Shown piece by piece: positions 19,901 to 22,900 of a DNA stretch of 64,000 bases. The position numbers are program-made. Within the stretch, counting starts at the first letter, position 1. Each line of letters starts with the position of its first letter. The DNA is from Escherichia coli (GTDB lineage Bacteria; Pseudomonadota; Gammaproteobacteria; Enterobacterales; Enterobacteriaceae), in the NCBI RefSeq assembly GCF_041248615.1, contig NZ_CP158426.1; one strand, 5' to 3'.

Positions 19901-22900
19901 TATCTGCTATGAATTTTCCAAATGCCCCAGTTCCGAGCGAAGATGCGATTTGAGCACTAGTCGCAAGATGACCAATAGAATTTCTCTGGTCGTCATCAAT
20001 AAAGCCCATCCCTTTCTGAACGCTTTCAAATTCTTCTGGATACTCAGAAATAAGACTGCGCATTTTGTTTCTGTCTCCAGACTCAAAAGCCCCGGCATAT
20101 GCTTTCTGAAACTCTGCTTTACGCTGTTGTTGACGTGCCTGCTGATTAATCTCAGCAACGCCTCTTAGCCCCTGTAGCGCCATTAAACCTACGTTTGGCT
20201 GCTGCTGATACTGCACAGGCTGAGGAACGGAAGAACGAGGAGCATTATCATTTTGCGGTGCCATGCTAGGCAGCCCGCCAAGTTGCCATGTCGCCATTAG
20301 AATCCAAGCCCCCCAACAAGACCAATAAGCCCACCACCAATAGCGCCGGCCGCAGTTCCTATTCCAGGAACAACGGAACCAAGTTGCGCACCCGCTAAAG
20401 CGCCTGATGCTGCCCCACCAATACCACGCGCAAGACTGGATGGCTGCTGCGCCTGACCTGCACGAATAGCGCCAAGCCCCTGCAAGAGTTGTCCGGTATT
20501 ATTGGCGTAGTTTTGCCCTGCCGTTGCCTGCCCTGATGCCGCATTCATCCCGACATTTAGCAGGTTTCCATAATTTTGCATTTGCCCACTAAGCCAATTG
20601 TTATAAAGCATGGGCGCAATGGAAGATAACTGGTTACTGGTAGCTGTTGAGCCAAGCCCCCCGGTAGCTTCTGCTGAGACAAGGTTCTGATAACGGGCCT
20701 GATCTGCCTGTGTTTTATATAAACCAGAACCAAAGAAATCATTCGCGGCTTTATTCTGCCCTTCCAGAGTCATCAGTCCTTGTAGTTGTTGTAAAGCAGG
20801 CAATCCGACTTCTGCATACGGCTTGAGATTATTCATCACCGTATTCCACTGCTCGCGCTGCAAATCAATTGCCTGCTGCTGGGCCTTCGCCTGAGCTTTA
20901 GAGGCACCACCATCACCGCCTTTTTCGTATACGGCACGATTGAGATGTTTATGAGCTATATGGGTAATTAACATTCGCTGAATTCCTTATATTGTTGCCG
21001 AGTTAACTGATAAAGCGTTACGCCGACGGGTTTACCACATCTGATATAAGCATCATCAAGGTGACCAACACGGGTAGCGCCAAGCAAACGGATAATTGCC
21101 CGTCCGTATTTCGTGGTGTCAGGAACCATAGTGATGCTGTTAAGGAATGGTGAGTTTTCGAGAAGCCATTTGCAGAATAATCGATGCCCTTGCAGTGCAT
21201 ATTCACCACGGAATCCGGGGTCGTACACCGCATGGCATTCAACAATGCTATGCCAGAAGTTACGCACTTCATGAACGCCAGCCAGCACCAATCCTTCGTA
21301 GATGCCGAGATATACCGCATCAGGCTTGATGTAGTACGTGTGCCCCGGCTCAACAATATTTTCGGTATTGCCAGGATCGTTAAGAAAGGCCTGTAATCGC
21401 ACAGGGTTATCAATAAATTTTAGTTCCATGCGATGCCATCCATTTTCACATACAGCCTGCCAGCGCCTTATCTATTAACCCTCGAGCAATTTCATGCAGA
21501 GTTGGCGCTACTCCAATTCCTGATTTTTTACGCTGCTCTTCCTGAATTTTCTTTATCGCTTCCATTTGCTTCTCACTTATCAATACCGGCTTTACTGAAA
21601 TAGCCATAACGCCCCCTTAGAACTGTATAAAACAACAGTTATTATAGTTTCACAAATCGCAATATTCATCATCGTAATTGCAAAATATGAAACAGATAGC
21701 ACAAAAAAATGCCACCGCTCAGTAGCTGGTGGCATCGTTCTGTGTGTCAGGTTTTGACAGGTTTTTTATGGACTCTAAAAACTATATTTATGGTGTCGCA
21801 TTACCCTTCACGGCAGGCGCTTTTCAGTTCTGCCCTTGCTTCTGGCTCCATTGGTAATTTGATTCGCGATCAGCTATGCGGATGGTTTGCTGAACAGGCA
21901 TAACAACTTCTCAGTGGCTGTTTTCTGAACTACGAAAATTTCGTAGTGCTCACTTTCAAAAACGTCACGCCCTTGTACACAGGATTTTACGAAAGTCTCG
22001 TAAAACACTCTCTGATGCCAGCCAGGTGTTGTGCGCATCAATTCAGTCACATTGTGTTGGTTCAAAATACCGTGTTGTTGGTTCAGTGTTGGTTCAATAA
22101 AAAGAATAAAATCCTTATAAAACAATACTCTTTACAAATTGAACCAACTGAACCAACTGAACCAACACCTTTTCTACGCACATGAAGAAGCTCATTCTTC
22201 AGATGAGTTATAATCTCCTGGCTGGTAATTGAGTACATAAACGTTTATTTGTCGTCCCTGAATACGTGGTGATTTTCTTTGGTATCCACGACCGCTGTTT
22301 GGTGGGGTTAGCATCCCGGCTTTTTTCAACACTTCAGCAAACTGTTTTGCGTTGAAACCACATGCGATCTCCTTTTCAAATGTGGCCGGGAATGTGTAGA
22401 AAATCATTGGGCTTTCGTCATGTTCTCCACGCTGACGGTATCCGGCTAAATCTTTGATGGGCAAATCTGCCGGGCTGTATGGAAATGGTGCAAAACGGCT
22501 AAGCCCATAGGCATTAAGAAATGCCTCCGTTTGTTCAATAATCTGCTGATGCTCTTTGTTACCTGTGCCGAACTCGCGCAACCATGCGTTATAGCTGTGC
22601 TGTATCGCATCACGGCATGTCTGAGCATCCCAGCCTGTTACAACCTCGCCTAACAACAATGCGGCCTCCAGAATGGCAAATCGCGCGGCTACACGGTGAA
22701 CCTGCTCACCATAATCGGATGGGATCAGGCTTCTCCATCTGCTTTCGCAGTCACGAACGGTTTTAATAGCCTGTTGCTGGTGGTCTGCCAGCCATTTAAT
22801 CCACTCACGCCCGGACGCGCCGTGGTGATGCTGGTAAGCGTCTTTCAGTGCGTCTGCGTGCTGTTTTCCGTTCTGGTAATCGTGAAAGCGTACTGCTTTA

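What the first reader, a model, noticed from the sequence alone, without database searches (positions are those of the whole stretch)
21610..21650. Consensus LexA box overlapping the promoter of the five-gene operon
AACTGTATAAAACAACAGTT (CTGT-N8-ACAG, AT-rich centre) lies just downstream of a reverse-strand TATAAT and about 15 nt upstream of the start codon of the first gene. Phage late or ejection genes are not normally LexA-controlled, so direct SOS control of this cargo would be unusual and suggests DNA-damage-triggered deployment. The same box type is present at dinD in this window as an internal positive control.
Basis: seen in the sequence. Interest (0 to 1): 0.6.

Follow-up and report, generated by a model that had tools for sequence, protein, structure and literature searches.

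The report
SOS box gating a satellite's ejection-protein operon
A near-consensus LexA (DNA-damage) operator sits directly against the promoter of an operon of P22-type DNA-ejection proteins carried by a phage satellite island (EcCIMP1 family), and it is conserved wherever that cargo is carried, so the satellite probably times these virion proteins to the SOS signal that also wakes its helper prophage.

Summary
AACTGTATAAAACAACAGTT lies at 21621-21640. It abuts a minus-strand TATAAT (21641-21646) and ends 13 nt before the ATG of a 53-aa ORF that heads a tight five-gene operon: the small ORF plus P22 gp14-, gp7-, gp20- and gp16-like genes.

After dinD's box it is the best LexA-like site in the window. 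A site this good appeared in 0 of 300 random 64-kb windows.

The element is not a phage. It is a roughly 20-kb integrase/AlpA/primase island of the EcCIMP1 family, a PICI shown by experiment to be mobilised by the P22-like phage Kapi1. EcCIMP1 carries the identical promoter and box, yet its paper never mentions LexA.

Across 85 related loci:
- Four lineages keep CTGT-N8-[A/C]CAG in the same register behind TATAAT, with different spacers.
- A sister clade with other cargo has a one-base-short, degenerate version.
- Box presence tracks P22-like ejection cargo (41 with both, 33 with neither, 3 exceptions).

I conclude this is very probably a genuine LexA operator. No binding or expression data exist. 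The −35 element is weak, so derepression alone may not be enough for expression. The closest precedent is the LexA-controlled operon I of SaPIs. It is moderately interesting and directly testable.

The parts
21621..21640 (-). LexA (SOS) box. Minus strand: AACTGTTGTTTTATACAGTT. Core CTGT-N8-ACAG at 21623-21638.
   Evidence: HI 5.14, second only to dinD in the window; 0 of 300 random windows. Conserved in register in four lineages. The core is invariant in sampled E. coli variants.
21641..21646 (-). -10 hexamer TATAAT of the operon promoter, directly abutting the 20-mer box.
   Evidence: TATAAT or TAAAAT is present in all 42 unique family promoters aligned.
21664..21669 (-). Best -35 candidate, ATGAAT (3 of 6), with a 17-bp spacer. 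It is weak.
   Evidence: Read. The promoter scan did not call a promoter. The family consensus at this position is (A/G)TGA(A/T)(T/C).
21647..21697 (-). Family-wide conserved upstream promoter block (TTTCAT-N-TTGCAAT ... ATGA-N-ATTGCGAT ... TGAAAC). Candidate operator(s) for an activator or for the small ORF product.
   Evidence: Alignment of 42 unique promoters from both clades. Function not tested.
21703..21734 (-). Rho-independent terminator-like hairpin (TGCCACC...GGTGGCA followed by a T-run). It insulates the operon from primase-operon transcription.
   Evidence: I1. A hairpin plus T-run with different loop and stem sequences is kept in the E. coli, Citrobacter-type and L016-type islands.
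21612..21618 (-). Shine-Dalgarno sequence AAGGGGG of the first gene.
21446..21607 (-). 53-aa leader ORF. It is conserved in all family members whatever the cargo. Function unknown; a regulator is my guess.
   Evidence: No hit in Pfam, PHROGs, NCBIfam or PADLOC. The AF2 model shows coil-helix-helix with pLDDT 75. No fold match.
20968..21429 (-). P22 gp14-like protein (DUF2824), an ejection-protein assembly factor.
   Evidence: PHROG 651, E = 1e-66. Annotated as DUF2824.
20297..20974 (-). P22 gp7-like ejection protein.
   Evidence: PHROG 598, E = 3e-70. PF25688 P22_gp7 in homologues.
18876..20297 (-). P22 gp20-like ejection protein.
   Evidence: PHROG 917, E = 2e-110. Less than 60% identical to any deposited phage; the best match is APSE at 52%.
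16771..18876 (-). P22 gp16-like ejection / DNA-transfer protein.
   Evidence: PHROG 770, E = 8e-162.
22192..24951 (-). TOPRIM/DUF927 primase of the island, the upstream transcription unit.
   Evidence: PHROG 1139.
12776..12795 (-). dinD LexA box (AACTGTATATAAACACAGTT), the internal positive control.

Best explanation
The palindrome is a genuine LexA operator on the private promoter of the 'DNA-delivery' operon of an EcCIMP1-type phage satellite (PICI).

**Proposed mechanism**
1. In undamaged cells a LexA dimer sits from about -5 to +15, directly behind the -10 hexamer. It blocks RNA polymerase, and an upstream terminator prevents read-through from the primase operon. The membrane- and cell-wall-active ejection proteins therefore stay silent.
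2. DNA damage activates RecA, LexA cleaves itself, and the promoter opens.
3. The same signal induces the resident P22-like helper prophage. The helper then switches on alpA and with it excision and replication of the island.
4. The satellite's gp14-like assembly factor and its own gp7/gp20/gp16 set are thus present while helper procapsids assemble, and can be built into particles.

**Shown here**
- The sequence, its quality and its position.
- Its conservation and its association with this cargo.
- The identity of the island family.

**Inferred**
- LexA binding and SOS induction.
- Incorporation of the proteins into virions, and what benefit follows.
- Whether derepression alone suffices or an activator (AlpA, a helper factor, or the 53-aa product) is also needed.
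For: **Site quality**
- The core CTGT-N8-ACAG is perfect, with HI 5.14. That lies within the range of my 24 reference sites (0.8-10), and a site this good was seen in 0 of 300 random windows.

**Geometry**
- The box abuts the -10 and lies 13 nt from the ATG.
- In Salmonella, tightly LexA-dependent genes have boxes that overlap the transcription start site and lie about 22 bp from the ATG (PMC8072944).

**Conservation**
- Four lineages keep CTGT-N8-[A/C]CAG exactly 2 nt after TATAAT while the spacer differs: TGTTTTAT (E. coli), GTCTATAT (Serratia), ATCGTTAT (Citrobacter-type), and ATCGTTAT followed by CCAG instead of ACAG (L016-L018).
- By my count from the alignment, 1 of 8 arm columns varies (A to C, a substitution seen in real boxes) against 5 of 8 spacer columns and both 5' flank columns.
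- About 498 of 5426 complete E. coli genomes carry the promoter. In every sampled variant, with up to 4 mismatches in 55 nt, the changes lie outside the 16-bp core.

**Contrast clade**
- In Klebsiella, Raoultella, Cedecea and Erwinia the same promoter carries CTGTATAAATATCAGG, which is CTG-N9-CAG, one base short, with HI >= 14.6.
- There the 'arms' drift freely (TTGT, TTAT, CTTC).

**Association with cargo**
- Box with P22-like ejection cargo: 41 loci. Neither: 33. Exceptions: 3.
- A decayed box (L181, TTGT...AGAG) goes with non-P22 cargo.

**Insulation**
- A terminator upstream is conserved with different sequences.

**Context**
- EcCIMP1, which carries an identical promoter and box, is excised, circularised and transduced only with the helper Kapi1, and more so after mitomycin C (PMC11773190).
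- SaPI operon I is LexA-controlled (PMC5052747).
Against: - There are no LexA binding, ChIP or expression data for this promoter. The EcCIMP1 paper does not mention LexA, and the MP1 transcriptome paper gives nothing on SOS.
- The -35 is poor, and the generic scan calls no promoter.
- Strongly conserved upstream motifs suggest an additional regulator, so SOS alone may not induce the operon.
- The loci are related by descent and by horizontal transfer. The 41/33 association and the conservation therefore rest on only about 4-6 independent lineages.
- One locus keeps the box with a different cargo (L113), and one keeps the cargo without a box (L049).
Confidence: 0.75

Rival explanations
1. The palindrome is the operator of the operon's own 53-aa first-gene product, for example a ribbon-helix-helix-like autorepressor. 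On this view the resemblance to a LexA box is coincidental.
For: - The small ORF is always the first gene behind this promoter, whatever the cargo.
- Its predicted shape, an extended N-terminus followed by two helices, is compatible with a small DNA-binding dimer.
- Palindromes at a promoter are typical autoregulatory operators.
Against: - The N-terminal segment (VKPVL) and the second helix (HEIARGL) are invariant across both clades. Yet the clade-2 promoters lack the palindrome, and its arms drift there.
- What is conserved in both clades is the block upstream of the -10, which is the better operator candidate.
- The conserved positions and the exact 8-bp spacing in clade 1 match LexA's requirements precisely.
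- There is no Pfam, PHROG or NCBIfam hit, no Foldseek match and no profile match to Arc, so the ribbon-helix-helix assignment is itself unsupported.
Confidence: 0.08
2. The LexA box is real, but it is only a safety lock. Transcription needs a second, helper-dependent input: AlpA, a helper late activator, or a factor binding the conserved upstream repeats. DNA damage without a helper would then not express the operon.
For: - The -35 is weak (3 of 6), and the scan calls no promoter.
- Two conserved TTGC(A/G)AT-type repeats about 21 bp apart lie upstream in all family members.
- In EcCIMP1 the master regulator alpA responds to the helper and not to mitomycin C alone (PMC11773190).
- Clade-2 islands run the same promoter without any LexA box, so the promoter has another control logic.
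Against: - The -10 is a perfect TATAAT. Many LexA-regulated promoters are simple sigma-70 promoters.
- No activator site has been identified.
- This is a refinement of the main explanation rather than a contradiction of it.
Confidence: 0.35
3. The box is a chance or relic sequence with no regulatory role. Its apparent conservation reflects only the recent spread of one promoter cassette.
For: - Within E. coli the whole promoter is at least 90% identical, so invariance there carries little weight.
- Islands recombine as modules.
Against: - 0 of 300 random windows reach this score.
- Four lineages have 4-5 differences in the 8-bp spacer yet keep intact arms and register.
- Arms decay in lineages that lack LexA spacing or P22-like cargo.
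Confidence: 0.07

Closest known systems
SaPI operon I, the LexA-repressed packaging/interference operon of Staphylococcus aureus pathogenicity islands (Ubeda et al. 2007 Mol Microbiol 65:41, as cited in PMC5052747 and PMC6739421)
   Same: - A phage satellite keeps the operon that acts on helper virion assembly under direct LexA control.
- The regulator for excision and replication responds to the helper.
- The SOS signal coincides with induction of the helper prophage.
   Different: - The host is Gram-negative and the LexA motif is different (CTGT-N8-ACAG).
- The cargo is a P22-type ejectosome set (gp14/7/20/16), not terS, cpmAB or pti.
- No capsid-size redirection genes were recognised.
- LexA control here is predicted, not demonstrated.
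EcCIMP1, the PICI of E. coli MP1 mobilised by the P22-like phage Kapi1 (Pick, Stadel and Raivio, ISME J 2025, PMC11773190)
   Same: - The same island family and gene order: int, alpA, ant, ash, DUF927 primase, small ORF, DUF2824, gp7, gp20, gp16, then accessory genes including PerC.
- The promoter and LexA box are identical base for base.
   Different: - The integration site differs: tRNA-Thr between proA and yagU in MP1, against dinD/yicC here.
- The gp20 and gp16 alleles differ (439 aa and a 906-aa lytic-transglycosylase form in MP1, against 473 and 701 aa here), as do the accessory genes.
- The paper does not describe the LexA box or the regulation of these genes. It proposes them only as possible packaging genes.
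Canonical E. coli SOS-regulon operators, such as dinD in this window, sulA and umuDC
   Same: - The same 16-bp core, an AT-rich spacer and an HI in the functional range.
- Overlap with the promoter and transcription-start region, close to the ATG.
   Different: - It sits on a mobile satellite and controls virion proteins rather than repair, mutagenesis or division genes.
- It is present in only about 9% of E. coli genomes.
LexA-controlled genes of temperate phages (Gifsy antirepressors, PMC3121763; phage 186 tum, from my own knowledge)
   Same: A mobile element wires one promoter directly to host LexA in order to sense SOS.
   Different: In those cases the LexA-controlled gene is an antirepressor that triggers induction. 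Here alpA induction depends on the helper (PMC11773190), and the LexA-gated genes are structural DNA-delivery proteins.

Membership tests
Gammaproteobacterial LexA operator (SOS box) | A 16-bp core CTGT-N8-ACAG with exact spacing and an AT-rich centre | tested here: met
   CTGTATAAAACAACAG at 21623-21638.
Gammaproteobacterial LexA operator (SOS box) | A heterology index in the range of sites that bind LexA (functional sites are low; non-binders are roughly above 15) | tested here: met
dinD scores 2.59 and clade-2 versions 14.6-22. 0 of 300 random windows reach <= 5.2.
Gammaproteobacterial LexA operator (SOS box) | A position that overlaps the promoter or transcription start of the regulated gene | tested here: inconclusive
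   The box abuts a perfect, family-wide conserved TATAAT and lies 13 nt from the ATG. However, the promoter is only predicted, its -35 is weak, the scan did not call it, and no transcription start site has been mapped.
Gammaproteobacterial LexA operator (SOS box) | Evolutionary conservation of the arms relative to the spacer in orthologous promoters | tested here: met
   Four box types share arms and register but have different spacers. The arms decay where the spacing or the cargo differs.
Gammaproteobacterial LexA operator (SOS box) | LexA binding in vitro or in vivo, and lexA/recA-dependent induction by DNA damage | not testable with these tools
   No data were found in the literature held.
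Gram-negative PICI (EcCIMP1 type) | Integrase, then AlpA, then primase/replication module, all in one orientation, in a roughly 20-kb island at a chromosomal att site | tested here: met
   Window: int ORF 30722-32074, alpA-like 29385-29603, Ant 28108-28941, Ash 26911-27939, primase 22192-24951. The E. coli 042 copy of the island, which shares this module, carries the same annotation for it.
Gram-negative PICI (EcCIMP1 type) | Helper-dependent excision, circularisation and transduction | not testable with these tools
   Shown for EcCIMP1 with Kapi1 (PMC11773190). That island is 99.3% identical over the 291-nt promoter plus small-ORF query (H27) and has an identical box and the same gene order. 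It was not shown for this copy.
SaPI operon-I-type LexA-controlled satellite operon | The operon encodes packaging or capsid-redirection functions (terS, cpmA/B, pti) | tested here: not met
   The cargo is P22 gp14/7/20/16-like. No terminase or capsid-size genes are present in the operon. The comparison is therefore an analogy of logic, not membership.
Ribbon-helix-helix (Arc/MetJ/CopG) regulators, considered for the 53-aa ORF | A match to an RHH profile or fold | tested here: not met
   No Pfam hit even at E <= 10. No PHROG or NCBIfam hit. Best Foldseek PDB match E = 2.6. hhalign against Arc gives probability 0.2%. Only the coil-helix-helix pattern is compatible.

The most novel reading that the evidence does not exclude
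EcCIMP1-type satellites practise 'ejectosome swapping'. Under SOS they express their own, highly diverged gp20/gp16 (with or without gp14 and gp7) set, which is loaded into helper procapsids.

Particles carrying the island would then inject through satellite-specified conduits. That could let them evade SieA-like exclusion, which targets gp16/gp20 in P22 (PMC10461980). Conversely, it could underlie the unexplained superinfection immunity that EcCIMP1 gives Kapi1 lysogens (PMC11773190).

On this reading the LexA box is the timing device. It was selected only in lineages whose helpers are SOS-inducible P22-like prophages. Sister lineages carry tape-measure-like, hub-like or internal-virion lytic proteins behind the same promoter without a LexA box.
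Probability: 0.3. Interest if true: 0.8.

Novelty: new variant of a known kind. Interest (0 to 1): 0.55.

Why it matters
**A testable handle on an unexplained module.** About 9% of complete E. coli genomes, and relatives in Serratia, Citrobacter and other Enterobacterales, carry this satellite family. Its one characterised member, EcCIMP1, has unexplained features:
- very low transduction;
- no recognisable packaging genes;
- helper-specific superinfection immunity with no known defence system.

A conserved LexA operator on the ejection-protein operon gives a concrete way to ask when and why a satellite makes its own DNA-delivery proteins.

**A parallel across distant satellites.** It would extend the SaPI logic of a LexA-gated virion-directed operon to Gram-negative PICIs. 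That suggests convergent use of the host SOS repressor by unrelated satellites.

**A practical link to antibiotics.** SOS-inducing antibiotics such as quinolones and mitomycin-like agents would be tied to expression of satellite functions that affect transfer of islands carrying PerC/ANR-type virulence regulators and abortive-infection genes.

Tried and rejected
1. **Ribbon-helix-helix assignment of the 53-aa ORF.** I suspected it from the sequence pattern. Pfam, PHROGs, NCBIfam, PADLOC, a PDB sequence search, Foldseek and hhalign against Arc all gave nothing. I keep it only as an unconfirmed idea.
2. **Origin of the leader ORF in phages.** tblastn of the small ORF against 50,697 phage records found no match. 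The promoter-plus-leader cassette is specific to satellites.
3. **Known defence system.** The five proteins have no PADLOC hit.
4. **Published expression or binding data.**
   - The EcCIMP1 paper has no mention of LexA.
   - The MP1 colicin/SOS paper has no transcriptome.
   - The MP1 RNA-seq paper has no SOS condition.
   - Samuels et al. 2019 is not held in the library.
   - The ExPEC 'LexA-controlled prophage endolysins' paper concerns other loci.
6. **A second LexA site at alpA.** At 29648-29667 only the left half (TACTGTAT) is present and HI is about 11.5. In addition, alpA-lux is not induced by mitomycin C without the helper (PMC11773190). I rejected it as a functional box.
7. **The species-representative genome scan** returned only 4 loci. 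Diversity came instead from the look-up of encoding contigs, IMG/VR and the metagenome scan.
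Full report
**1. What is in the sequence**

The 20-mer AACTGTATAAAACAACAGTT lies at window 21621-21640, with the core CTGT-N8-ACAG at 21623-21638.

Read on the minus strand, the region is:

...TTTCATATTTTGCAATTACGATGATGAATATTGCGATTTGTGAAAC TATAAT AACTGTTGTTTTATACAGTT CTAAGGGGGCGTT ATG.

- The box directly abuts a perfect -10 hexamer (21641-21646).
- It is followed by a Shine-Dalgarno sequence (21612-21618) and the ATG at 21607.
- The gene it precedes is a 53-aa ORF (21446-21607).
- Four tightly packed or overlapping genes follow (20968-21429, 20297-20974, 18876-20297, 16771-18876).
- PHROG profiles identify those four as the P22-type gp14 (DUF2824), gp7, gp20 and gp16 set, with E-values from 1e-66 to 1e-162.

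One weakness is that the best -35 at 17-bp spacing is ATGAAT (3 of 6), and the generic promoter scan called nothing here.

Upstream, between the primase gene (22192-24951) and the promoter, there is a terminator-like hairpin with a T-run (21703-21734). The operon is therefore a transcription unit of its own.

**2. Is it more than chance?**

- The bare pattern occurs 3 times in the window against 0.61 expected.
The values are approximate, because no paper I could open lists the sequences.
- With that matrix the site scores 5.14. dinD in this window scores 2.59 (AACTGTATATAAACACAGTT at 12776-12795, about 30 nt upstream of dinD at 11908-12744). The next best site scores 8.1.
- In 300 first-order Markov random windows of 64 kb, none had a site with HI <= 5.2. 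The real window has two.

**3. What the element is**

The region is 100% identical in strain 21AR0303 and 99.8% identical in E. coli 042 over the 901-nt query. In 042 it belongs to an island of about 20 kb between dinD and yicC. The island has the following order (confirmed in the window):

1. tyrosine integrase
2. an AlpA-type HTH
3. AntA/B
4. Ash
5. a TOPRIM/DUF927 primase
6. the ejection operon
7. accessory genes (PerC family; Abi in the window)

This is the architecture of EcCIMP1. That PICI of E. coli MP1 was shown by experiment to excise, circularise and be transduced only with the P22-like temperate phage Kapi1, and more so after mitomycin C (PMC11773190).

MP1 was among my hits (H27). 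Its EcCIMP1 copy has the same gene order and a promoter, box and Shine-Dalgarno sequence identical base for base.

That paper:
- does not mention LexA;
- notes the DUF2824 and 'DNA transfer' genes only as possible packaging genes;
- shows that alpA is induced by the helper and not by mitomycin C alone;
- reports an unexplained contribution of the island to superinfection immunity against Kapi1.

**4. Comparative test of the box**

The promoter plus small ORF occurs in about 498-500 of 5426 complete E. coli genomes.

I collected 85 loci that encode the small ORF. They came from protein-anchored look-ups, IMG/VR and metagenomes. The search pattern used for the last two did not include the box.

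An alignment of 42 unique promoters shows a family-wide conserved block upstream of and including the -10, and two clades downstream of it.

| | Clade 1 | Clade 2 |
|---|---|---|
| Hosts | E. coli, Serratia, Citrobacter-type, one further lineage | Klebsiella, Raoultella, Cedecea, Erwinia, some E. coli |
| Sequence after TATAAT | CTGT-N8-[A/C]CAG, always exactly 2 nt after the hexamer | CTGTATAAATATCAGG, i.e. CTG-N9-CAG, one base short |
| HI | 4.6-8.2 (one flank variant 11.9) | 14.6-22 |
| Arms | conserved | drift (TTGT, TTAT, CTTC) |

The four clade-1 box types are:
- AACTGTTGTTTTATACAGTT (E. coli)
- TACTGTGTCTATATACAGTT (Serratia)
- AGCTGTATCGTTATACAGTG (Citrobacter-type)
- TACTGTATCGTTATCCAGTG (L016-L018)

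By my count from that alignment, 1 of 8 arm columns varies, and that change (A to C) is common in genuine boxes. By contrast, 5 of 8 spacer columns and both 5' flank columns vary.

Within E. coli, sampled variants with up to 4 mismatches in 55 nt have every change outside the 16-bp core. The exception is UPEC129, where an ISEc53 element has inserted into the spacer of the box and cut the promoter from the operon.

This pattern is what purifying selection for LexA binding predicts. It is hard to reconcile with chance.

**5. Association with the cargo**

The gene(s) behind the small ORF are always DNA-delivery or wall-penetrating virion proteins, but of different kinds:
- P22-like gp14/7/20/16, or only the gp20 plus gp16 pair;
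- SLT-domain internal virion proteins;
- tape-measure-like lytic proteins;
- a baseplate-hub-like protein.

| | P22-like ejection cargo | Other cargo |
|---|---|---|
| LexA-type box | 41 | 1 (L113, an HEAGH metalloprotease-like gene) |
| No box | 2 (recombinant L049; the IS-split L064) | 33 |

A lineage with a decayed box (L181, TTGT...AGAG) has non-P22 cargo.

The loci are not phylogenetically independent, so I treat this as a strong tendency resting on a handful of lineages. P22-like helpers are temperate and SOS-inducible, and Kapi1 is induced with mitomycin C (PMC11773190). That offers a rationale for tying this cargo to LexA.

**6. Mechanism proposed**

*Shown:*
- a high-quality LexA-type operator that abuts the -10 and covers the expected transcription start;
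- an insulated transcription unit;
- conservation of the box and its association with the cargo.

*Established elsewhere:*
- In enterobacteria, boxes that overlap the transcription start and lie about 20 bp from the ATG go with tight LexA-dependent expression (PMC8072944).
- SaPI operon I is LexA-controlled (PMC5052747).
- Foreign gp7/20/16 sets can replace those of P22 in virions.
- gp16 and gp20 must be a cognate pair.
- SieA exclusion targets gp16 and gp20 (these last three points from PMC10461980).

*Inferred:*
- LexA keeps the operon off. SOS opens it at the time the helper prophage is induced.
- The satellite's own ejection proteins, which are less than 60% identical to any deposited phage gp20, are then available for incorporation into helper procapsids.

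Because the -35 is weak and conserved TTGC(A/G)AT repeats lie upstream, a second input is plausible. It could be AlpA, a helper factor or the 53-aa product. I give that refinement about 0.35.

**7. Rivals**

*Operator of the 53-aa protein.* The protein's conserved segments are the same in both clades, but the palindrome is absent from clade 2. No evidence supports a ribbon-helix-helix fold. I give this about 0.08.

*Chance or relic.* This is contradicted by sections 2 and 4. I give it about 0.07.

**8. Comparison with what is known, and novelty**

- As a DNA site, this is an ordinary gammaproteobacterial SOS box.
- As a system, it is closest in logic to SaPI operon I. It is not a member of that group, because the cargo is different and the LexA motif and host differ.
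- It belongs to the EcCIMP1 PICI family, for which LexA control has not been described in the held literature.

I class it as a new variant of a known kind: LexA-gated, virion-directed operons of phage satellites.

It is directly testable, because both the MP1/Kapi1/EcCIMP1 system and an MP1 lexA(Ind-) strain already exist (PMC11773190; PMC7284606).

**9. Verdict**

- Observation: confirmed.
- Interpretation: partly supported.
- Confidence that this is a functional LexA operator: about 0.75.
- Interest: 0.55.

Noticed in passing
window 22054-22168: A cluster of 9-12-nt GTTGGTTCA(A/G) repeats lies just downstream of the primase gene and before the terminator. There are three direct copies on one side and three inverted copies (ACTGAACCAAC, 9-nt period) on the other. 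This looks like an iteron-type replication origin of the island.
   Followed up: partly
Loci L002, L007, L010, L020, L181 (genes immediately downstream of the small ORF): The same promoter-plus-53-aa-ORF cassette drives different DNA-delivery or wall-penetrating virion proteins in different islands. These include SLT-domain internal virion proteins, tape-measure-like lytic proteins and a baseplate-hub-like protein, sometimes followed by terS-like genes. In other words, the satellite family carries helper-type-matched genome-delivery proteins. I found no paper describing this as a family trait.
   Followed up: partly
L064 (E. coli UPEC129, NZ_CP071522.1), locus 1088-3036: An ISEc53 (ISL3-like) element carrying a ClbS/DfsB-family gene is inserted exactly in the 8-bp spacer of the LexA box (TGTTTTAT duplicated). 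It separates the promoter from the operon.
   Followed up: yes
L113 (metagenome contig ERZ773131 NODE-1060), downstream of the small ORF: Here the intact LexA-box promoter and small ORF are followed by a 223-aa protein with an HEAGH zinc-metalloprotease motif and then a PerC-like gene, not by ejection genes. This may be a defence or toxin gene placed under SOS control.
   Followed up: no
window 29648-29667 (minus strand), upstream of the alpA-like gene 29385-29603: A half LexA site, TACTGTATGGGCAACCACTA (HI about 11.5, right arm broken), lies 45-64 nt upstream of alpA. The EcCIMP1 paper shows that alpA is not induced by mitomycin C without the helper, so the site is probably not functional.
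   Followed up: partly
window 19328-19347: A LexA-like 20-mer, CCCTGTATGCAAATCCAGCA (HI 8.1), lies inside the gp20-like coding sequence. I did not check its conservation, and it may be chance.
   Followed up: no
L002 1292-1675 (E. coli LR-33 island): A Rap1a/Tai-family immunity protein gene sits at the end of the virion-lytic-protein operon in the same orientation. This suggests self-protection against the SLT or lytic domain of the cargo. In the window, a convergent 155-aa ORF with a signal-peptide-like N-terminus (16241-16708, PHROG 2651) occupies the corresponding position.
   Followed up: no
window 18876-20297, compared with the phage collection: The island's gp20-like protein is less than 60% identical to every gp20 in 50,697 deposited phage genomes. 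The best matches are the APSE phages of Hamiltonella, at 52%. The satellite's ejection proteins therefore form their own diverged lineage rather than recent copies of a known helper.
   Followed up: partly
window 13443-15482: The accessory end of the island carries a PerC-family regulator (13443-13730) and an Abi_2-type abortive-infection protein (14460-15482). This end differs from the E. coli 042 copy, which has a Doc-family toxin instead. The accessory region is therefore mosaic between otherwise near-identical islands.
   Followed up: partly
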